Shown: positions 29,366 to 36,728, numbered from the stretch's first letter. The stretch: 44,588 nt of DNA from an uncultured Candidatus Saccharibacteria bacterium (GCA_964632215.1 CAZWBG010000001.1:1-44588); one strand, 5' to 3'. Notes: generated by a model from the letters alone, not told the origin. Numbers and translations are program-made.

Positions 29366-29441
29366 GGCCCCGTCGTCTAGTGGTTAGGATATCTGGTTCT
29401 CATCCAGAAGATCGCGGGTTCGAATCCCGCCGGGGTCACCA
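29366..29441 (+). tRNA. tRNA-Glu (anticodon CTC)
   Basis: Acceptor GGCCCCG/CGGGGTC, anticodon arm TCTGG-TTCTCAT-CCAGA, T arm GCGGG-TTCGAAT-CCCGC, encoded CCA. TTGCAT-17-TAACAT promoter at 29314-29342. Confidence 0.97.
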
Positions 29442-30936
29442 AAGAAGACTCATCACGCGTTGGTGAGCCTTTTTGATTTGCAGCCAATCTGTAAAGTGAG
29501 CTCAATTTTGCCGTTCCAAACTGCCTTTTAGCAAGATCATAACTCAGACCTTCTGGAAACACTAGATTTTGGTAAATGATGCGATGCTCAACAGATGCAT
29601 CAAGCCAGATTCGGGGTGCGTTCGACATAAATTGGAGCGCGTAGTCTATTGAGTTGGTTTTGAAATCATTCATAGATCCTACCTCATCAAGTTGTTTACG
29701 CGTTCTTGTTTCTTCTGCATCTAAGTTATTAATCAGCGCTTTCTTTTCATCTGTAGTAATTTGACCGCTCACAAGCATCTCAACAGTCTTATTCTTGCGG
29801 ACTGTGAGACTCTCTAGGGCCTTGTGTAGTTGCTTCTGCTTAGTAGCGAGGGTCTGTGTTTCATCACGCCATACGCGCACGATCATCTCCTTCAGAAACT
29901 TCTCCATACCTGGGTCGGGTTTTAGGGAATTGAGCAACTCAATAAATTGCTTGTGCATCTCATCGGGTTTAATAGACGGCACATGGCATCGCGAGCAATG
30001 GTACCGCGGCGACGGTATTCCTGAGCCATTGCGAGGGCTGCTCCCCGTCATTGGTTTTTCGCAATTAGTGCACAGTAAGAATCTTCGTAAAGGAAATTCT
30101 GGATTGTTCTGTTTATATTTTGCTGTCGAGTTCTTGTTTTTCTTGAGTACGTCCTGGTTACGATAAAAAGTACTAGGGGATATAATTCCACCGAACTTCG
30201 AAGGTAATAGCTGTCCGTCAGTATGTTGGCTTTTTTCTAGGCCCGCATAGATTGGATTTCTCAAAGCCTTACTAATAGCCTGTATTTGCATCTTTTTCCC
30301 TGAAGCTGACTTTAGTCCGATCTCTTCACAAAGCACTACAAGCCCCGCCATTGTGTGAGCCCCCGACGAGTACGCTTCAAGTATCGTAGCCATATTGTCG
30401 GCTATTCCTTCAATTGGCTCAACGGTCGATCTTCCCAGGACGTCTCTGACGTTCCTCAGGCCTAAAGGAGCCTTACTCATTCGATAGCCTTCCTTTGCCT
30501 GGCGTTTCATATTTTCCTTCACGCGTGCGGACTTAAGGCGATTATCATGATTGGCGATTACAGCTTCAAGGCTCTGAACAAGCTCGTCATTCAGATTCTC
30601 ATCTAAGCTTGAGTTTATGTTTTTATACTCGACGCCCGATAGAGACAACCTTGCCCTTAATGCAAAGAAATCAACTGCACTCCGAGTCAGGCGATCCGTT
30701 TGATAGGTGATTAGGTACGAGATTTGATTTCGACTAGCTTCAAGAGCTGACAACATCTCTTTCATTGCAGGTCGTTCTAGTGTTTTTGCCGAAGCACCGT
30801 CGTCATGATAGATCTTTTCCACCAGAACATTATTGCGTGATGCCCATTCTTGACACATAAATTGCTGCGTCTCAAGACTCGCACCATCAACCTGCTTAAG
30901 CGTAGAGACTCGAAGATAGATTACAGCACGTTTCAT
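29377..30936 (-). CDS. Large serine recombinase (integrated-state form, last 19 aa from antisense tRNA)
   Basis: Catalytic YLRVS, DRLTR, GYRMSKAPLG, LRNPIYAG, zinc ribbon C-x2-C...C-x2-C (CTNC, CSRC) and a coiled coil. Confidence 0.92.
   Translation of the reverse strand: MKRAVIYLRVSTLKQVDGASLETQQFMCQEWASRNNVLVEKIYHDDGASAKTLERPAMKEMLSALEASRNQISYLITYQTDRLTRSAVDFFALRARLSLSGVEYKNINSSLDENLNDELVQSLEAVIANHDNRLKSARVKENMKRQAKEGYRMSKAPLGLRNVRDVLGRSTVEPIEGIADNMATILEAYSSGAHTMAGLVVLCEEIGLKSASGKKMQIQAISKALRNPIYAGLEKSQHTDGQLLPSKFGGIISPSTFYRNQDVLKKNKNSTAKYKQNNPEFPLRRFLLCTNCEKPMTGSSPRNGSGIPSPRYHCSRCHVPSIKPDEMHKQFIELLNSLKPDPGMEKFLKEMIVRVWRDETQTLATKQKQLHKALESLTVRKNKTVEMLVSGQITTDEKKALINNLDAEETRTRKQLDEVGSMNDFKTNSIDYALQFMSNAPRIWLDASVEHRIIYQNLVFPEGLSYDLAKRQFGTAKLSSLYRLAANQKGSPTRDESSLVTPAGFEPAIFWMRTRYPNH
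29436..29442 (+). repeat. attL core TCACCAA
   Basis: Identical to 34540-34546 and overlaps the tRNA ACCA terminus. Confidence 0.8.
29447..29474 (+). terminator. Element-supplied terminator for the tRNA, antisense within the recombinase CDS
   Basis: CTCATCA-cgcgt-TGGTGAG stem followed by TTTTT. Confidence 0.6.
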
Positions 30937-31130
30937 GATTCAATATTATCATTGTTTTTGTTGTTTTTGGAACGAATATATTGACGTACACCTATTCTTA
31001 CCACCGTTTCAGTGTCATTTATTAGTTGCAATAACTCTTCGTTGGTAATATCTTTTGCCGATGCACCCAAAAGCTTACGAGCTTCCATTAAAGAAATGAT
31101 TGGTTTTTGTGGAGATAGCGAATTAGCCAA
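30933..31130 (-). CDS. Small helical protein, possible excisionase/directionality factor
   Basis: ISLMEARKLLG resembles a short HTH start. Its stop overlaps the recombinase start (ATGA). Confidence 0.65.
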   Translation of the reverse strand: MANSLSPQKPIISLMEARKLLGASAKDITNEELLQLINDTETVVRIGVRQYIRSKNNKNNDNIES

Positions 31131-31345
31131 AGTGTCATATTGACCCTTCCTGCTTGCTCCCGTCCAGACACCTTCGTCGCGGGGTTATTATCTGTTATTC
31201 AGACAAGCTTTGTGATATTGGCTAAACTACGCTTATATGTTTCTATTATATCACTTTTTCGGTGTTGCTACGCTATAATAAGCAACAAGTCGCTAGTGCG
31301 GCGGTAGCCTAGAGCCACGTATATAACGAAGGTATGGTTATAAAT

Positions 31346-31440
31346 CCACGAAAAGAAACAGCTCGTCATGAGTACCTCTTTTCGTGGTTACTACTGGAAA
31401 CGGTAGTAGGGGCGCAAGCCTCGCTCGTGGCGGGCTTTTT
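31346..31440 (+). promoter_or_regulatory. Structured leader/attenuator-like RNA
   Basis: 11-bp stem 31346-31356/31377-31387 and 13-bp stem 31360-31372/31424-31436 followed by a U-run, plus GAAA- and GCAA-capped hairpins. Confidence 0.55.
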
Positions 31441-31477
31441 AGTTTGTCACGGCCACAAACTAAAAAGAGGAGGGTAC

Positions 31478-31720
31478 ATGGCAAAGAAACCACTATTTTA
31501 CGAGGGTATGACAAACGGAGAACGCTTACGATCGGTAATCTGGGTTATCGTTATTCTCGTAGCGCTTGGAGTTTTTCTATTTGGTGCGTTTTTTCTACCT
31601 CGTTCGTCTGGCAACGATACAAAGCAGGATCCAGGTGAAAGTGACTACGAATATCATCAACGTATTCAAGGTCAGGACGAGGAGCAATATAAAGACTGTG
31701 GCTTTAAGCCAACTTGCTAG
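31478..31720 (+). CDS. Small single-pass membrane protein
   Basis: GAGGAGG RBS before ATG 31478, one TM helix, C-terminal CGFKPTC. Confidence 0.65.
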   Translation: MAKKPLFYEGMTNGERLRSVIWVIVILVALGVFLFGAFFLPRSSGNDTKQDPGESDYEYHQRIQGQDEEQYKDCGFKPTC

Positions 31721-31803
31721 CTCCTCAAGCTATCATTGACATCCGATGATTTTATATGATTGATGTTATAATTATCGAAGATAACCAGTGAGAGATTGGA
31801 GAA

Positions 31804-33162
31804 ATGATGCTGAATATGTCGAATTGGCCAACTGTGACCGAAAAGGTTGTTAACTTGCAGCTCGATGAGTCAAACATACGCATAGATATACAAAACCCAT
31901 CTCAGGACGCGATAATCCAGGATTTATTTGCCAACGAAGGGGCGATGCAAATCGTCGAGAGTGTTCTGAGAAATGGGTTTTTTAACAACGAGCTCCCCGT
32001 CGTATTAAAAAATAGCTCCAAGTATGTAGTGCTGGAAGGCAACAGGCGCGTTGCTGCACTTAAGGCTATTATTAACCCACGACTCGTGCCGACTTTTGAA
32101 GCCAAGATCAACGCACTTATTAACGGACAAGATATTAGTCCGCTAAGAGAGGTAGAGCTAAAAGTTGCTCCTTCTCGCGACGATGCCTCTCGCCTCATTT
32201 CCTCAATTCACACAATTCAATCACGCAAGCCTTGGCGACCTTTAAGACAAGCGTACTTCTACTATGCTCAGCTAGAGAAAGGTAAGCGCAAGATTGAAGA
32301 CTTAATTCTTGAATACCCAAATATAGATATCCCTAGATTCGTAAAGATGTGGGAAATGCATAAAATTGCTCAGTCAATAAAGTATGACGATGCCGACACG
32401 CAGACCGATGTCAGTTCTCGTGGCTTCAAAATCAGTACCTTCGAACGTCTATATCAAAATGATAAGTTTCGTGAAAAATTTGGACTATCTTTCGACAAAT
32501 ACGGCAGGGTGAAGGTTAGCGCCAAAATGAGTGATTTCAAGGACTCCCTGAAACAGGTTGTAACCGATATTGTCACTGGGGAGATTGATTCTCGTAAGAT
32601 CAACAAGGAGTCACAGCTTGATGGCTATTTAGAGAAGTGGAGTTCACCTGATAAAAAAGGTGAGGGGGCGCCGAAAACAAGTGACGACTTTGAACCCGTG
32701 GAGGTACCAAAGAAAGCCTCTACCCCGAAGGCGTTAATACCAAAAAGTGTTCAGACGACGCTGGGAAGCGCAGGAGTTGAGCGTCGGCTCAAAGAGCTAC
32801 AGAAACTCCCATATAGAAACTATCCTAACGCCGCCCACGACCTATTACGCAGTCTTCTCGAGTGCGGATTAAAGGCTTACTGTCAAAAAGAAGGTATTAC
32901 ACTGCAGGCACGACGCCAAGGTGGATATGTATTCCTACACGACGCACTAACGGAGACGAGAAATCATCTGCAATCAAACAACATCCGCAAAGATCTTTTG
33001 CAGGTGATAGACAAGACTGTTAGCAAAGCCGAGAAATTCTCAGTAAAAGACAACCTCGACGCCATAAATCACAATCACAACATCTTCTCTACGGGTGATG
33101 AAGTAAAAGAAGCTTGGGATACCATAAGCGCTTTGGTACAATATGTATTAGATCCTAAATAA
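31804..33162 (+). CDS. ParB/Srx-like N-terminal domain protein with a helical C-terminal domain (possibly HEPN-like)
   Basis: ParB-type motif YVVLEGNRRVAALK after NGFFNNELPVV. C-terminal LLRSLLE...LDAINHN. Confidence 0.7.
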   Translation: MMLNMSNWPTVTEKVVNLQLDESNIRIDIQNPSQDAIIQDLFANEGAMQIVESVLRNGFFNNELPVVLKNSSKYVVLEGNRRVAALKAIINPRLVPTFEAKINALINGQDISPLREVELKVAPSRDDASRLISSIHTIQSRKPWRPLRQAYFYYAQLEKGKRKIEDLILEYPNIDIPRFVKMWEMHKIAQSIKYDDADTQTDVSSRGFKISTFERLYQNDKFREKFGLSFDKYGRVKVSAKMSDFKDSLKQVVTDIVTGEIDSRKINKESQLDGYLEKWSSPDKKGEGAPKTSDDFEPVEVPKKASTPKALIPKSVQTTLGSAGVERRLKELQKLPYRNYPNAAHDLLRSLLECGLKAYCQKEGITLQARRQGGYVFLHDALTETRNHLQSNNIRKDLLQVIDKTVSKAEKFSVKDNLDAINHNHNIFSTGDEVKEAWDTISALVQYVLDPK

Positions 33163-33177
33163 TACAAAAACCAAAAA

Positions 33178-34032
33178 ATGATAACAGCAAAAATACAAAG
33201 AAAGCTTCTATTCACACCGTTGCGCTATCCAGGTGGCAAAACATCTCTTTTCGAGTACTTTGACAAGGTCATCAAAGAGAATAACCTCAAGGATGTATGC
33301 TACATCGAACCCTACGCAGGTGGAGCGGGGGCTGCTTTATCCCTCTTGTTGTTAGAGAAGGTGGACCGACTTGTTATTAACGACTACGATAAGGCCATAT
33401 ACGCTTTCTGGAAGAGTATCCTGGATCAAACGGATGAGTTTGTCGGGTTAGTGCAAAGCACGCCTCTCACTATAGAGGAGTGGAAGAAACAGAAAGCCAT
33501 ATATGCCAACGGCTCTGATGACTTACTAGAGTTAGGTTTTGCGACTTTTTATCTAAATCGAACTAACAGATCTGGAATCCTGACTGGCGGACCGATCGGC
33601 GGAATGGCACAACAGGGCAAATGGTTACTTGATGCACGCTTTAATAAACCAAAACTTATCGAGAGAATTAAGCTCATATCGCTATATCGTGACCGAATCA
33701 CAGTATCGAACACTGATGGACTTGAAGTAATACGCAAATACTCAAAAAATCCCACCTCCTTTTTCTACATAGACCCCCCGTATTACGATAAAGGCCAATG
33801 TCTCTACCTCAACTCCTACAAGCACGAAGACCACGAGAGACTCGCTAAGTTACTGAATAAGCAATCAACAGCAAAGTGGATATTGAGCTACGATAATGTT
33901 CCTCAAATTAAGGAACTCTACAAAACACGCAAAAAGCAGTACGAATTTTCTCTGCACTATCAAGCCCACTCGAGCAAAGAAGGCTCTGAACTTATAGTAT
34001 TCTCTGACAAACTTATAGTTCCCGAGGATTAG
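33178..34032 (+). CDS. Dam/D12-class N6-adenine DNA methyltransferase
   Basis: PLRYPGGK, motif I YIEPYAGGAG, FYLNRTNRSG, catalytic IDPPY. Confidence 0.93.
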   Translation: MITAKIQRKLLFTPLRYPGGKTSLFEYFDKVIKENNLKDVCYIEPYAGGAGAALSLLLLEKVDRLVINDYDKAIYAFWKSILDQTDEFVGLVQSTPLTIEEWKKQKAIYANGSDDLLELGFATFYLNRTNRSGILTGGPIGGMAQQGKWLLDARFNKPKLIERIKLISLYRDRITVSNTDGLEVIRKYSKNPTSFFYIDPPYYDKGQCLYLNSYKHEDHERLAKLLNKQSTAKWILSYDNVPQIKELYKTRKKQYEFSLHYQAHSSKEGSELIVFSDKLIVPED

Positions 34033-34427
34033 TCCAATACACTCTGTATATTAAACTGGATGGCCGCAAGGCGACTCGATCCAAACATCTGGTAATGCTT
34101 CATCATCATATCGATGGCACGCAGTTTATTTTGTGTCGTTTCTGTGCCACCATTAATTATGCTCGTTAATTTAAGTAGCAAAAGGTCGGGCTCCATTGTC
34201 TGCATCTGACCGAGTTTTTCCGATAACCACTTGGGCCGATTATGTGTTAGGTTTCGTGCTGTTTCAGATGTATAACCCGCGCTTAAGGCTGACCTATAGC
34301 AATTGCCGAATGACGGGCTTGTTACGCTAAAGTAGAGCTCAATGAACTTGTCTTGTCGCGGGTCTAGGGTCGAGAGGGTTCCTTTGGGCTCCACCCCCCG
34401 TCCTTCGTGAAATACTTCTATACTCAT
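34029..34427 (-). CDS. Terminase small subunit-like protein
   Basis: LDPRQDKFIELY...GNCYRSALSAGYTSETA matches the TerS N-terminal HTH pattern (L..KQ..F...Y...NA..AA..AGYS..TA). Confidence 0.7.
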   Translation of the reverse strand: MSIEVFHEGRGVEPKGTLSTLDPRQDKFIELYFSVTSPSFGNCYRSALSAGYTSETARNLTHNRPKWLSEKLGQMQTMEPDLLLLKLTSIINGGTETTQNKLRAIDMMMKHYQMFGSSRLAAIQFNIQSVLD

Positions 34428-34540
34428 ACACCCGTTCCTATAACTGCTGGAATGCTTCTAGCTACTGTTGTACTACGGAGTAGGTCATACCATGATTGTA
34501 TCTCTGACAAGATATCGTTCCAATTCGAACGCAGGTAGTT
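34424..34540 (-). other. Stranded 3' end of the recombinase gene (38 codons plus TGA)
   Basis: Reads NYLRSNWNDILSEIQSWYDLLRSTTVARSIPAVIGTGV* in frame with the recombinase when joined through TCACCAA. The stop overlaps the TerS-like ATG. Confidence 0.75.
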
Positions 34541-34546
34541 CACCAA
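34540..34546 (+). repeat. attR core TCACCAA
   Basis: Identical to 29436-29442 and directly followed by a terminator. Confidence 0.8.
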
Positions 34547-34581
34547 CAAAACAGCTCACCACCGGTGGGCTTTTTTGTTGG
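34543..34581 (+). terminator. Probable original tRNA-Glu terminator displaced by integration
   Basis: AGCTCACC-acc-GGTGGGCT stem with TTTTTT, extended by CCAACAAAA/TTTTGTTGG. Confidence 0.75.
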
Positions 34582-34689: not shown

Positions 34690-36627
34690 CTAGCGATTTG
34701 ATTCGGATACCCTGAAAGCCTGAGCATGACGCAGCCGAACATTCCAACGATCTTCAATTAGTTTACTGGGCTTTATTGGCGCAAGGTGGCTATATGTATC
34801 AATAATGTGCTGGCGGATTGCTGCTACTGTCTCGTAAGGACTATCTGCTTCACTAACGACTGTGTCCACGAGGCCGATTTCATGCTGCGCTTCACTGCTA
34901 GGGCTGAGCGCTAAAATAGTATCAGTACGATTTTGCGGCGTTGCGTTGGCACCGTATACGATAACTGATGCTGCACCAGGTTCGGCAACAGTCATCAGCC
35001 CTTTGCTTAACACTGCCAGCGAGTCACCGCGAGGGGATGTCACTAAACCTCCACCGCTACCCTGTAGACCTGTAATGATACTCATGATTGGCTGGCCATA
35101 GGTGCGGTAGCGCGCCAAGATGTTCGCGATGTCTTCGAACTGGCCTTGAAGTTCTGATTGTAGGGACGGTTCGGCACCAGGGGTGTCAGTTAACAGTATA
35201 AGCGGCAGTTGCAGTCTATCCCCCAGGTTTACCATGCGTAGTAGATACTTAAGATCAGAGGGTTTTGGTGTCGAAAGAATTTTTGAAACCTCTCCGTCGA
35301 CAATCCTGTATGACGGCTGATCGCCTGCTACCATAAAAGACCGCATGCCTATACGGCCAATACCTGCAATAATTGATGGATATATATACTCACCTCGATC
35401 TTTGTCGTAAAAGTGATTATAAAGTGGCACTACGTCTTGGAACGCTTGCTGTAGGACCATTTCGGTATCAGGGCGAGCTACGTCGAATAAAAGATTTCGG
35501 TAGCGATCGGTGAGCATTTGACCTATGGCGGTTTGCTGAGCGTCGGCTTCAGTTTTGCCCGCTGCGAGTTCGGTGGCGTACAGATCCGCTATATTACGCT
35601 CATGGCGTGGTTCCGCAGAAATAGTAATGTGAGCGTCTCTCTGATTATCTTCATATAGCGGTGGTGCGATTATGTTTTGCGAGAAGCGGAAGAATCGCTG
35701 CTCACCATCGGGCCCCACAAGTTGTGTAGGAGGAATAATGCTGCCATCAAATTTTGGGGTTTGTGCACTATCAACACTCAAAAAGCTACCAAGGTACTGG
35801 GTTAATTCACTGGTATTATGTACCAATACGTCGATGTTGCGCTGTAAAGCATGTACCTCTACCCGCTGTGCGCCCTCGGCTACTTCGCGATTTTCTTGAG
35901 CTGCGATAACACGGCCACCTGCAAACCCCATTTGAGTGCCAGTGTACGCAATGCGCAGGTCTGCTCGGGGCATTGAACTAGCAGTCACCCCACCCCAGAC
36001 TTCGCCAAGGAGCACGGCAACATTGGGCACATGAGGGGCTTTTTCTTTTAAGGCTTCGAGAGCTACTACGCCGCGCTCCATCTGGTATAGTGCTCGACCA
36101 TTTTCGTCTTGACGGGCTCCTCCCGATGAATAGATAGTTATGAGTGGACGCTTGGTGGCTTCGGCCAGCTCAATGGCCTGAAGGAGTTTCTCGCCAGCAA
36201 CAGACGAGAGTGAACCACCCATGAAGTCATAATGCATAGCATAGATTACGACATCGTGATCGTCTATTTTGCCAACACCAAACTCTGCGGCTTCGGGCTT
36301 GCCTTTTTCTTCTCGGTTCCTTGAGTGCTTGTCTTTGTAGACTTCAATCTTTTCGCCAATACGCTTAAAGAATGGAATGGTATCAAACTGCGGTATGAGA
36401 TGCGTGCCTCGCGGGTGAAAATCTACCTGTTCAAGGATAGACTCGAGTTCTTTCGGTATTTCTTTACTACTCCACCGTGGTGTGGCTTCAACCAGTTGTT
36501 CGGCAAGTGTTGGTGCGATAACTTGATGTGAAGAATCGAGCTCTTGGGCTAGTATCTGCGCAATATCGTCACAGATGACCTCACCCCCTATAAAGTGGTC
36601 TTCGTTAGTTATTGCTTCTTTGCTCAT
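34690..36627 (-). CDS. Fused acyl-CoA carboxylase carboxyltransferase (AccD-like beta plus AccA-like alpha)
   Basis: Beta motifs FMGGSL..AGEK, SSGGARQDE, GGVTAS, GFAGGRVI. Alpha motifs DTPGA, GSGGG, EPGAASVI. Confidence 0.82.
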   Translation of the reverse strand: MSKEAITNEDHFIGGEVICDDIAQILAQELDSSHQVIAPTLAEQLVEATPRWSSKEIPKELESILEQVDFHPRGTHLIPQFDTIPFFKRIGEKIEVYKDKHSRNREEKGKPEAAEFGVGKIDDHDVVIYAMHYDFMGGSLSSVAGEKLLQAIELAEATKRPLITIYSSGGARQDENGRALYQMERGVVALEALKEKAPHVPNVAVLLGEVWGGVTASSMPRADLRIAYTGTQMGFAGGRVIAAQENREVAEGAQRVEVHALQRNIDVLVHNTSELTQYLGSFLSVDSAQTPKFDGSIIPPTQLVGPDGEQRFFRFSQNIIAPPLYEDNQRDAHITISAEPRHERNIADLYATELAAGKTEADAQQTAIGQMLTDRYRNLLFDVARPDTEMVLQQAFQDVVPLYNHFYDKDRGEYIYPSIIAGIGRIGMRSFMVAGDQPSYRIVDGEVSKILSTPKPSDLKYLLRMVNLGDRLQLPLILLTDTPGAEPSLQSELQGQFEDIANILARYRTYGQPIMSIITGLQGSGGGLVTSPRGDSLAVLSKGLMTVAEPGAASVIVYGANATPQNRTDTILALSPSSEAQHEIGLVDTVVSEADSPYETVAAIRQHIIDTYSHLAPIKPSKLIEDRWNVRLRHAQAFRVSESNR

Positions 36628-36728
36628 AATTTGGCTTAATATACCATTTTCAGCATTTGTTCGCAACTAATGTGACGGCGCGAGAGGTGTTCTAGACTAA
36701 TACTCGTGAGCCCCTTCAAGATTAGTAG

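What the first reader, a model, noticed from the sequence alone, without database searches (positions are those of the whole stretch)
29377..34546. Serine integrase gene is cut by its own attachment site, giving state-dependent C-termini
Seen: the core TCACCAA encodes L499-V500 of the recombinase on the minus strand. Integrated, the frame continues through antisense tRNA-Glu (TPAGFEPAIFWMRTRYPNH*, 519 aa). Joining through the second copy at 34540-34546 gives an uninterrupted, amphipathic-looking tail NYLRSNWNDILSEIQSWYDLLRSTTVARSIPAVIGTGV* (538 aa). Its TGA (34426-34424) overlaps the next gene's ATG (34427-34425) as ATGA, which is hard to explain by chance. Established analogies: SSV1-type tyrosine integrases are split by attP, and attP lies in the repressor gene of mycobacteriophage BPs. 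Inference: recombination itself rewrites the integrase tail, which could control directionality, stability or activity.
Basis: partly seen in the sequence, partly recalled or inferred. Interest (0 to 1): 0.9.

Follow-up and report, generated by a model that had tools for sequence, protein, structure and literature searches.

The report
Serine integrase gene spanning its attP
A 5.1-kb mobile element in a Saccharibacteria genome has its recombination site inside its own serine-integrase gene, so insertion at the tip of a tRNA-Glu gene swaps the enzyme's conserved helical tail for 19 residues read backwards off the tRNA, a layout I found described only for tyrosine integrases.

Summary
The 7-mer repeat alone means nothing, since it occurs 14 times in the window. 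The in-frame tail at the far end is real:
- A profile built only from uninterrupted homologs hits exactly one place in the window, the predicted tail (E=7e-9).
- A relative's genome has the empty site. An identical tRNA-Glu(CTC) runs straight into the sequence that lies 5.1 kb away here, and the break is at TCACCAA.
- The end-joining test repeats in a second element of this genome, and tails were found in 16 of 22 loci examined across the class.
- Contigs with the unbroken, tail-bearing gene exist.

The last integrase codons before the junction also form the terminator that the element supplies to the tRNA. The first ~10 tail codons are conserved as DNA (probable attP arm). The next ~15 are conserved as protein, as a helix after a disordered linker.

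In this element and four relatives a TerS-like gene follows the tail directly, so integration also splits an operon. Cargo is a PD-Lambda-5 defence pair.

Excision of this copy was not observed, and the tail's function is untested. I rate it a new variant of a known kind: Mx8 IntP/IntX and SSV1 are the tyrosine-integrase precedents.

The parts
29366..29441 (+). tRNA-Glu(CTC), intact, with encoded CCA at 29439-29441. This is the B arm of attB and the host side of attL.
   Evidence: ARAGORN. It is 100% identical over 77 nt to the tRNA at a relative's empty site.
29436..29442 (.). Core copy 1, TCACCAA: the last 2 nt of the acceptor stem, discriminator A, CCA, plus 1 nt. The crossover lies within it.
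   Evidence: Across 12 elements the shared core always covers TGGTNN in the integrase sense.
29377..30936 (-). Large serine recombinase, integrated isoform, 519 aa. Residues 1-500 come from the element; residues 501-519 are antisense tRNA.
   Evidence: Pfam Resolvase 5.6e-25, Recombinase 1.7e-5, Zn_ribbon_recom 8e-4; translation. The homolog model matches SPbeta, Bxb1, phiC31 and LI integrases.
29443..29475 (+). Element-supplied intrinsic terminator for the tRNA: hairpin 29449-29467 followed by a T run. On the minus strand the same bases encode integrase residues ~488-498 (QKGSPTRDESS). It is the probable P arm of attP.
   Evidence: Terminator scan and fold, -12 kcal/mol. The equivalent AAAAAAGACCCATC...GATGAGTC motif (KKDPS..DES) is seen in most of the 12 int-ends compared.
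30933..31130 (-). 65-aa ORF whose stop overlaps the integrase ATG (ATGA). It is a conserved partner and a candidate regulator or directionality factor.
   Evidence: Homologous small ORFs lie directly upstream of the integrase in L006, L007, L009 and L010. No family match.
31334..31720 (+). 128-aa ORF of unknown function, with a hydrophobic stretch.
   Evidence: No family match.
31804..33162 (+). Cargo: PD-Lambda-5 protein A, with a ParB-like N-terminal domain.
   Evidence: PADLOC PD-Lambda-5_A, E=2.3e-50.
33178..34032 (+). Cargo: PD-Lambda-5 protein B, a D12-class N6-adenine methyltransferase.
   Evidence: PADLOC PD-Lambda-5_B, E=3e-115; Pfam MethyltransfD12, E=4.4e-21.
34029..34427 (-). 132-aa TerS-like protein. 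Its ATG overlaps the stop of the tail ORF. In the circular form it would be the third gene of an operon: small ORF, integrase, TerS-like gene.
   Evidence: PHROG 51 terminase small subunit, E=1.3e-6; Pfam Terminase_2, E=1.2e-4, below the cut-off. It is conserved directly after the tail in L007, L008 and L009.
34424..34539 (-). Stranded integrase tail: 38 codons (NYLRSNWNDILSEIQSWYDLLRSTTVARSIPAVIGTGV) plus TGA. It joins codon 500 only in the excised form.
   Evidence: independent tail HMM, E=7.4e-9; protein-level conservation pattern.
34517..34528 (-). TCGAATTGGAAC, tail codons S-N-W-N. It is nearly invariant, third codon positions included, and is the probable recognition motif in the P' arm of attP.
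   Evidence: Codon entropies over 18 tails; alignments.
34540..34546 (.). Core copy 2, TCACCAA, at attR.
   Evidence: The relative's empty site resumes here.
34553..34577 (+). Native terminator of the tRNA: an 8-bp stem followed by TTTTTT. It is the B' side of attB, displaced 5.1 kb by the insertion.
   Evidence: Terminator scan; fold -23.3 kcal/mol, z=-6.3. In MAG CAYJDY01 it follows the tRNA directly.

Best explanation
Positions 29443-34546 are a 5,104-bp integrative element inserted at the CCA end of tRNA-Glu(CTC) by its own large serine recombinase.

**Layout of attP.** The element's attP lies inside the 3' end of that recombinase gene.
- The P arm is the last ~10 codons before the junction. 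These codons double as a replacement terminator for the tRNA.
- The crossover lies in TCACCA(A).
- The P' arm is the first ~10 codons of a further 38-codon tail.

**Circular form.** The gene is unbroken. It encodes a 538-aa enzyme that ends in a flexible linker plus a conserved helix. It is translationally coupled to a TerS-like gene downstream.

**Integrated form.** Integration separates codon 500 from the tail.
- The chromosomal copy makes a 519-aa enzyme ending in 19 residues of antisense tRNA.
- The tail and the TerS-like gene are stranded 5.1 kb away, behind the host terminator.

**What is shown and what is inferred.**
- Shown: the anatomy, the empty site in a relative, recurrence of the layout across the class, the existence of unbroken genes, and protein-level constraint on the helix.
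- Follows from the anatomy: integration in a new host can only be done by the long form. Excision can only be started by the short form.
- Inferred, at about 35%: the helix tunes the reaction. It may favour or stabilise attP x attB synapsis, or restrain the coiled-coil/zinc-domain switch that directionality factors act on. Recombination would then reset the enzyme's own properties.
- Also inferred: the split switches off the downstream TerS-like gene.

The confidence given (0.85) is for the architecture (attP inside the gene, state-dependent C-termini); the functional role of the helix is rated separately at about 0.35.
For: **Anatomy.**

**Tail is not chance.** The tail HMM built without the window gives a single hit, at the predicted place, E=7.4e-9.

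**Empty attB in a relative.** MAG CAYJDY01 has the identical tRNA followed directly by window 34547 onward, collinear for ~95 nt.

**Replication.**
- A second element in the same genome, at tRNA-Glu(TTC), has core TGGTGA and joins in frame to NYVKSKLNAICTELLEVY....
- All 22 integrase genes examined, at 28-100% identity, read [LMV]V and then antisense tRNA.
- Tails were found in 16 of the 22 loci, all on the integrase strand and on its 5' side.
- The int-end and far-end cores are always identical over TGGTNN, 6-9 nt in total, and 10 of the 13 far-end flanks hold a clear terminator-like hairpin.

**Unbroken genes exist.** They occur on assembled contigs with element genes on both sides: L003, L028 and L029.

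**Conservation pattern.**
- TGG AAC is invariant, third positions included.
- Codon 15 is GA followed by a free third base (E/D).
- Hydrophobic residues fall at codons 12, 13, 16, 19 and 23.

**Structure.**
- AF2 of the unbroken homolog P0009 has mean pLDDT 86.5, a disordered junction at 493-507 and a helix at 507-524.
- The fold matches SPbeta, Bxb1, phiC31 and LI integrases.

**Terminators.**

**Operon.** A TerS-like gene sits directly after the tail in 5 elements, with ATGA overlap in 3 of them.

**Published precedent that an extreme C-terminal element matters.** PMC11722253 cites earlier work showing that SprA residue F532 is important for directionality control (its reference 49, Abe et al. 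2021).
Against: - **No direct sign that this copy excises.** Logan contigs of four runs holding the locus show no joints. The exact attP junction is absent from the metagenome and viral collections.
- **Circularity not shown.** None of the contigs with an unbroken gene is demonstrably circular. One unbroken copy is frameshifted and sits inside another element (L004).
- **Weak helix prediction.** The tail helix has only moderate or low AF2 confidence, pLDDT about 50-72. Its hydrophobic moment in this sequence is not exceptional.
- **Possible DNA-only constraint.** The most conserved tail codons are conserved as DNA, so part of the 'tail conservation' may be attP function alone.
- **Variable tail.** Its length runs from 27 to 54 residues and its distal sequence varies.
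- **No functional data.** Nothing here bears on whether the two isoforms behave differently.
Confidence: 0.85

Rival explanations
1. The tail is a by-product. The element is compact, so attP overlaps the end of the integrase gene. The P' arm has to be conserved as DNA, the reading frame simply runs on until a stop, and the extra residues do nothing for the enzyme.
For: - The strongest conservation is at the DNA level (TCGAATTGGAAC, third positions fixed).
- AF2 places the tail after a disordered linker and gives it low confidence.
- Tail length is 27-54 residues and the distal sequence varies.
- The hydrophobic moment is not significant in this sequence.
Against: - Codons 11-24 lie 30-75 bp from the crossover. 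That is beyond the ~25 bp half-site of known serine-integrase attP sites (40-50 bp in total, as stated in the abstract listed).
- Those codons still keep a helix-type pattern with free third positions: GA+N at codon 15, and T at the second position of codons 12 and 16.
- The frame stays open for at least 27 codons in all 18 tails, across integrases only ~30% identical.
Confidence: 0.25
2. The point of the arrangement is to split an operon. Placing attP between the integrase body and the downstream gene makes expression of that gene depend on the circular state. The downstream gene is TerS-like here and a PLD-like gene in L029. The tail would be only the translational bridge.
For: - A TerS-like gene follows the tail with ATGA overlap, or a 1-11 nt gap, in 5 related elements.
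- Integrase and a PLD-like gene overlap by 8 nt in L029.
- In the integrated state the host terminator sits directly upstream of the stranded tail and TerS-like gene.
Against: - The conserved tail helix is also present where no co-directional gene follows. L028 has a convergent Fic gene, L003 has a ~480-nt gap, and no ORF was found after the tail in L013, L015a and L017.
- A promoter-like site lies inside the tail-coding region upstream of the TerS-like gene. It is a weak consensus match only.
- This reading is compatible with the main explanation and does not exclude it.
Confidence: 0.3
3. This copy is an immobile relic. The 519-aa protein is a truncated, inactive remnant, and the far-end tail is a fossil of the last integration.
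For: - No excision junctions or empty-site contigs were seen in the four runs that hold the locus.
- No attP junction was found in the public collections.
- Decayed relatives exist. L004 has a frameshifted copy. L032 has an attP-like junction with no integrase body.
Against: - The integrase, the partner ORF, the tail frame and both core copies are all intact.
- The tRNA-tailed form is what nearly all of the ~80 closest homologs show, and none of the 22 copies examined carries an internal stop before the junction.
- Logan contigs drop rare variants, so their silence is weak evidence (tool note).
Confidence: 0.15
4. The second TCACCAA and the open frame behind it are coincidence, and the island boundary lies elsewhere.
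For: - The 7-mer occurs 14 times in the window.
- A 38-codon open frame has a chance probability of roughly 0.17.
Against: - The independent tail HMM gives E=7.4e-9.
- The empty site in a relative breaks exactly there.
- Tails were found in 16 of the 22 loci examined.
Confidence: 0.01

Closest known systems
Myxophage Mx8 integrase IntP/IntX
   Same: attP lies within the integrase coding sequence. Integration creates a recombinant gene with a new 3' end, and the prophage form is altered, not dead (PMC6070905, read). From memory, the target is a tRNA-Asp gene.
   Different: Mx8 Int is a tyrosine recombinase, with arm-type sites and a different chemistry. Here the enzyme is a large serine recombinase, the crossover sits at the CCA tip, and the codons before the junction also serve as the tRNA's terminator.
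SSV1-type (type I) archaeal integrases
   Same: The integrase gene is partitioned by its own attP when it integrates into a tRNA gene (from memory; the review PMC8371274 was listed but I did not read it).
   Different: These are archaeal tyrosine recombinases. The split falls mid-gene and separates the protein into two non-functional parts. Here only the last 38 codons are exchanged and the catalytic and DNA-binding body stays whole.
Canonical large serine integrases (phiC31, Bxb1, A118/LI, TP901-1, SPbeta SprA)
   Same: The domain set is the same (resolvase catalytic domain, recombinase domain, zinc ribbon with embedded coiled coil) and so is the overall fold. They also use short att sites with a small identical core.
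   Different: In those systems attP lies outside the integrase ORF (from memory), so one protein does both reactions and direction is set by a separate RDF. Their targets are mostly protein-coding genes or intergenic sites and not the tRNA CCA end. I found no paper that describes a serine integrase ORF spanning attP.
SprA extreme C-terminal element, and engineered integrase-RDF fusions
   Same: They show that what hangs on the C-terminus of a serine integrase can set direction. [quoted passage not shown] 2021). It also reports that an RDF fused to the C-terminus by a flexible linker drives the excisive reaction (see also PMC5737554, listed).
   Different: Those are point mutations, truncations or artificial fusions. 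Here the natural gene structure adds or removes a linker-plus-helix as a consequence of recombination. No effect on direction has been measured.
Mycobacteriophage BPs integration-dependent immunity; Tn4451 TnpX joint promoter
   Same: Site-specific recombination rewrites a gene or its expression signal. In BPs the repressor is truncated by attP. In Tn4451 a promoter for the serine recombinase is assembled at the circle joint. Both are from memory.
   Different: The rewritten unit there is a repressor tail or a promoter. It is not the recombinase's own C-terminus.

Membership tests
Large serine recombinase (serine integrase) | N-terminal resolvase-type catalytic domain with the serine nucleophile | tested here: met
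   PF00239, E=5.6e-25, residues 4-150. The motif is YLRVS(11)T. S11 is nearly invariant in 53 homologs.
Large serine recombinase (serine integrase) | Recombinase domain (DBD1) | tested here: met
   PF07508, E=1.7e-5, score 25.4 bits against a cut-off of 21.1.
Large serine recombinase (serine integrase) | Zinc-ribbon domain (DBD2) with an embedded coiled coil | tested here: met
   PF13408 scores 20.2 bits, below the 25.3 cut-off. However, C289, C292, C314 and C317 are conserved. AF2 of the homolog shows long paired helices at 342-438. The full-length fold matches SPbeta, Bxb1 and phiC31 integrases (E=3.8e-19) and, in part, LI integrase.
Large serine recombinase (serine integrase) | [quoted passage not shown] | not testable with these tools
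   The shared core is 6-9 nt, which is compatible. The cleavage position was not determined.
attP-within-integrase arrangement (Mx8 IntP/IntX type) | The integrase ORF spans the crossover point | tested here: met
   Unbroken homologs read through NTGGTN into the tail. The empty site and the end-joining test place the crossover at codons 499-501.
attP-within-integrase arrangement (Mx8 IntP/IntX type) | The integrated copy encodes a protein with a different C-terminus but an intact body | tested here: met
   519 aa with antisense tRNA residues 501-519, against 538 aa when joined.
attP-within-integrase arrangement (Mx8 IntP/IntX type) | Tyrosine recombinase chemistry | tested here: not met
   The enzyme is a serine recombinase. 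It therefore works like the Mx8 case but is not a member of that family.
tRNA-gene genomic island (Islander-type definition, PMC4383910 abstract) | Integration into a tRNA gene, with the gene regenerated and a displaced fragment marking the far end | tested here: met
   The tRNA is intact. The displaced fragment is only the 7-nt TCACCAA, followed by the native terminator.
tRNA-gene genomic island (Islander-type definition, PMC4383910 abstract) | Catalysed by a tyrosine integrase | tested here: not met
   It is a serine recombinase.
PD-Lambda-5 defence system (cargo) | Adjacent A and B (methyltransferase) genes | tested here: met
   PADLOC gives A E=2.3e-50 and B E=3e-115. The genes lie 15 nt apart on the same strand. 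Function was not tested.
Phage satellite (PICI-like) | Packaging-redirection gene plus helper-dependent induction and replication genes | tested here: inconclusive
   There is only a weak TerS-like match (PHROG 51 at 1.3e-6; Pfam below the cut-off). No replication, capsid or repressor gene was recognised.

The most novel reading that the evidence does not exclude
The linker-plus-helix tail is a directionality determinant built into the gene's structure. The full-length enzyme can be made only from the circle, and it is locked into attP x attB integration. Integration removes the helix. The chromosomal isoform is then the one that can be switched to attL x attR excision, perhaps with the conserved 65-aa partner. 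This would be a serine integrase that reads its integration state from its own gene and toggles itself accordingly.
Probability: 0.25. Interest if true: 0.85.

Novelty: new variant of a known kind. Interest (0 to 1): 0.72.

Why it matters
- **Directionality.** How serine integrases control direction is an active structural question, and these enzymes are widely used as genome-engineering tools. A natural family in which integration and excision must be carried out by two different isoforms of one enzyme gives a direct test: compare the 538-aa and ~500-aa forms. The difference is a short linker plus helix at the C-terminus, which is where engineered RDF fusions have been attached (PMC11722253).
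- **Dense overlapping code.** About 60 bp serve at once as coding sequence, attP, the rebuilt 3' flank of the tRNA, and its terminator.
- **A route for gene movement in Saccharibacteria.** The enzyme targets the near-universal ACCA tip of tRNA genes. Homologs were found in 44 of 401 sampled genomes of the class. This is a plausible major route by which these ultra-small bacteria exchange defence genes; the cargo here is PD-Lambda-5.

Tried and rejected
- **Direct evidence of excision.** Four metagenome runs hold the locus, but only as Logan contigs. They show no joints and no empty-site contig. One loose end (X2, at 34528) belongs to a related element and not to this one.
- **Exact attP junction of this element.** There were 0 matches in metagenome contigs and 0 in viral contigs.
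- **Empty site within the GTDB family.** None of the 15 other genomes in the family carries the integrase or the right-flank carboxyltransferase gene, so they were no help. The empty site came from an exact-pattern scan of genome contigs instead.
- **Circularity of contigs with unbroken genes.** No terminal overlaps were found.
- **A degenerate family-level attP pattern.** It found only one metagenome locus (L032), which turned out to lack the integrase body.
- **The 7-bp repeat as evidence.** Rejected, because the 7-mer is common in the window.
- **Amphipathicity of the single tail.** Not significant.
- **Literature.** Five full-text searches found no description of a serine integrase ORF spanning attP or of these Saccharibacteria elements. 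That is absence from the held library only.
- **Dyad symmetry.** By eye I looked for symmetry between att half-sites and saw none that was clear. The P' arm resembles the tRNA arm, with TCGAA offset by 1 nt. I could not interpret this against the 5-bp DBD2 shift known from LI and SPbeta integrases.

Full report
**What is in the window**

The window comes from a 929-kb Candidatus Saccharibacteria genome. A tRNA-Glu(CTC) gene lies at 29366-29441 on the plus strand, with its CCA encoded.

On the minus strand a 519-aa ORF (29377-30936) has the domains of a large serine recombinase:
- a resolvase catalytic domain, E=5.6e-25;
- a recombinase domain, above the Pfam cut-off;
- a zinc ribbon just below the cut-off.

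Its last 19 codons (TPAGFEPAIFWMRTRYPNH) are the reverse complement of the tRNA. L499-V500 are encoded by TTGGTG(A), the complement of TCACCAA at 29436-29442. A second TCACCAA lies at 34540-34546. Reading the minus strand on from it gives 38 further codons (NYLRSNWNDILSEIQSWYDLLRSTTVARSIPAVIGTGV). Their TGA overlaps the ATG of a 132-aa ORF.

**Is it more than chance?**

The repeat alone is not evidence. TCACCAA occurs 14 times in the window, and a 38-codon open frame is not rare.

The decisive evidence came from homologs. Among the ~80 closest relatives, nearly all end ...ES-x-[LMV]-V followed by a peptide typical of antisense tRNA, such as IPRGIEPLLPG or TSRRIELRLPG. About ten continue instead with N-[YH]-x-x-S-x-W-N-x-I-L..., which resembles the predicted joined tail.

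I built an HMM from nine of those uninterrupted tails, leaving the window out, and scanned all six frames of the window. The only significant hit is the minus-strand segment 34555-34427, E=7.4e-9. The next best hit has E=1.1.

**The boundary**

An exact-pattern scan for the predicted empty junction found another Saccharibacteria MAG, CAYJDY01. There an identical tRNA-Glu(CTC), 77 of 77 nt, is followed directly by CAAAACAGCTCACCTTCGGTGGGCTTTTTTGTTGGTCATTCTTGC... In the window that sequence starts at 34547. The window's two flanks, joined in a script, align collinearly with the relative for about 95 nt past the tRNA, and the break is exactly at TCACCAA.

The element is therefore 29443-34546, 5,104 bp. 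The sequence just beyond its far end is the tRNA's native terminator: an 8-bp stem followed by TTTTTT, -23.3 kcal/mol, z=-6.3.

**Replication**

- The same genome holds a second element with an integrase 66% identical to this one. Its ORF runs into tRNA-Glu(TTC). The tail HMM gives one hit there as well (E=7e-13), 5.8 kb upstream on the integrase strand. The shared core is TGGTGA, and joining gives ...NESLLV-NYVKSKLNAICTELLEVYSYMR... in frame.
- A search of 401 genomes of the class found homologs in 44. I fetched 20 loci.
- All 22 integrase genes, at 28-100% identity, read [LMV]-V and then antisense tRNA.
- Tails were detected in 16 of the 22 loci. They were always on the integrase strand and always on its 5' side, 3.8-14.7 kb away.
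- In the 12 elements compared base by base, the int-end and far-end junctions are identical over TGGTNN, 6-9 nt in total. In tRNA sense this is the last two acceptor bases, discriminator A and CCA.
- Ten of the 13 far-end flanks hold a clear terminator-like hairpin. Most of the 12 integrase ends carry AAAAAAGACCCATC...GATGAGTC, which is a terminator hairpin on the tRNA strand and the motif KKDPS..DES on the integrase strand.
- In the window the element-borne terminator is at 29449-29467, followed by a T run.

**Unbroken genes exist**

Contigs L003, L028 and L029 carry the full gene with element DNA on both sides. L029 is a conjugative element with T4SS genes and a Gabija-like pair, and its integrase overlaps a PLD-like gene. 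None of these contigs is demonstrably circular. One unbroken copy (L004) is frameshifted and sits inside another element.

**What kind of constraint acts on the tail?**

I aligned 18 tails by codon.
- TCG AAT TGG AAC (codons 7-10) is nearly invariant, third positions included. That points to a DNA-level role, most simply the P' arm of attP.
- Codons 11-24 behave like coding sequence for a helix. Codon 15 is GA followed by any base (E/D). Codons 12 and 16 keep T at the second position while the other positions vary. Hydrophobic residues recur at 12, 13, 16, 19 and 23.

AlphaFold2 on an unbroken homolog (P0009, 53-sequence alignment, mean pLDDT 86.5) folds the body confidently through about residue 486. 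It leaves the junction (493-507) disordered and predicts a helix at 507-524 with pLDDT of only about 50-72. The model matches SPbeta, Bxb1, phiC31 and LI integrases. For this window's tail alone, the hydrophobic moment is unremarkable.

**Surroundings**

- A 65-aa ORF overlaps the integrase start (ATGA). It is conserved in related elements and has no family match.
- The cargo is a PD-Lambda-5 defence pair: A at E=2.3e-50 and the methyltransferase B at E=3e-115.
- The 132-aa gene after the tail is weakly TerS-like.
- The same gene follows the tail in four relatives. Counting the window, ATGA overlap is seen in three of the five elements and gaps of 1 and 11 nt in the other two.
- In the circular form, the small ORF, the integrase and the TerS-like gene would form one co-directional unit across attP. 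Integration cuts that unit behind codon 500.

**Mechanism**

Shown:
- attP lies inside the integrase ORF.
- The integrated and excised states encode different C-termini.
- The tRNA is left intact and receives a substitute terminator.

Follows from the anatomy:
- Only the long form can be made in a newly entered host, so it must carry out integration.
- Only the short form can be made from the chromosome, so it must start excision.

Inferred, at roughly one in three: the helix changes activity, directionality or stability. PMC11722253 cites earlier work showing that SprA residue F532 is important for directionality control. It also reports that an RDF tethered to the integrase C-terminus by a flexible linker drives the excisive reaction.

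Two other readings remain open. The tail may be a by-product of overlapping attP with the gene. Or the main effect may be to uncouple the downstream gene.

**What is missing**

I saw no excision of this copy. I have no cleavage mapping and no functional data.

**Comparison with known systems**

The closest functional precedent is myxophage Mx8. Its attP lies in the integrase gene, and integration yields a recombinant gene with a new 3' end and altered properties (PMC6070905). SSV1-type archaeal integrases are also split by attP (from memory). Both are tyrosine recombinases.

The enzyme here meets the tests for a large serine recombinase, so it is not a member of those families but works in a like manner. 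In the canonical serine integrases attP lies outside the gene (from memory). Five full-text searches found no description of this layout for serine integrases or of these Saccharibacteria elements.

Earlier unchecked notes of this scan report the same layout in other Saccharibacteria genomes and in this genome's second element. I had reached my reading before opening them, and I re-tested the overlapping claims here.

**Verdict**

The functional interpretation is open. This is a new variant of a known kind. Interest: 0.72.

Noticed in passing
window 31804-34032: The element's cargo is a two-gene PD-Lambda-5 anti-phage system: a ParB-like protein A and a D12-class adenine methyltransferase B. 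This 5.1-kb unit is in effect a mobile defence cassette.
   Followed up: partly
window 34029-34427; L007 7277-7681; L008 7449-7850; L009 5338-5733: A conserved ~132-aa TerS-like gene always sits directly after the stranded tail, with ATGA overlap or a gap of 1-11 nt. It would join the integrase operon only in the circular form. This may be a hint of a satellite-like or packaging-related function.
   Followed up: partly
window 30933-31130 (-): A 65-aa ORF is translationally coupled (ATGA) to the integrase start. It is conserved in L006, L007, L009 and L010 (motif KPIIS..EARKLLG...L..EEL....E.VVR) and has no family match. It is a candidate directionality factor or regulator.
   Followed up: partly
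L031 (MAG CAYJDY01), reverse strand ~1-200: About 110 nt downstream of the relative's empty attB lies a second copy of the tRNA 3' end plus terminator (CCCGCCGGGGTCACCAACAAAACAGCTCACCTTCGGTGGGCTTTTTTGTTGG). It could be a duplicated attB-like remnant or a footprint of earlier element traffic.
   Followed up: no
L032 4100-4420 (-): This is an attP-type junction (AAAAAGACCCATCCATGACGGATGAGTCCCTT-TTGGTGA-ACCATCTGACATCGAATTGGAAC) with a complete tail and a TerS-like gene but no integrase body upstream. It is either a decayed element or an integrase-less unit that could be moved in trans.
   Followed up: partly
L004 2203-4022 and 6637-8224: A frameshifted integrase of the unbroken (attP) form lies inside or next to another element. 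That element's own serine integrase reads into tRNA-Glu(TTC). The elements appear composite or nested.
   Followed up: no
L015 ~10407 and ~13096 (-): Two far-end tail copies lie 8.8 and 11.5 kb from one integrase. This suggests tandem or nested insertions at one tRNA.
   Followed up: no
proteins P0097, P0101-P0103, P0105-P0110: Much more distant serine recombinases, at ~24-27% identity, also end in peptides typical of antisense tRNA in various frames (PGIEPG, RESNPRP, GQDSNL, AEGFEPP). ORFs that read across the att site into a tRNA may therefore extend beyond this family.
   Followed up: no
L029 3693-6475 and 14071-18957: This contig holds an unbroken integrase and also carries a Gabija-like pair (an OLD-family ATPase-TOPRIM protein and a UvrD helicase) and type IV secretion genes. 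It is a conjugative element that uses the same integrase design.
   Followed up: no
window 34690-36666 (-): The right-flank gene is a 658-aa protein with two carboxyltransferase-type regions (Carboxyl_trans N-terminal, ACCA C-terminal). It has no homolog in the other 15 genomes of the GTDB family, so the flank may itself be variable DNA.
   Followed up: no
window 34517-34546 compared with 29413-29442: The tail arm of attP resembles the tRNA arm of attB: both carry TCGAA at nearly the same distance from the core, offset by 1 nt. The same offset is seen in L011. I could not reconcile this with the 5-bp DBD2 shift described for LI and SPbeta integrases.
   Followed up: partly
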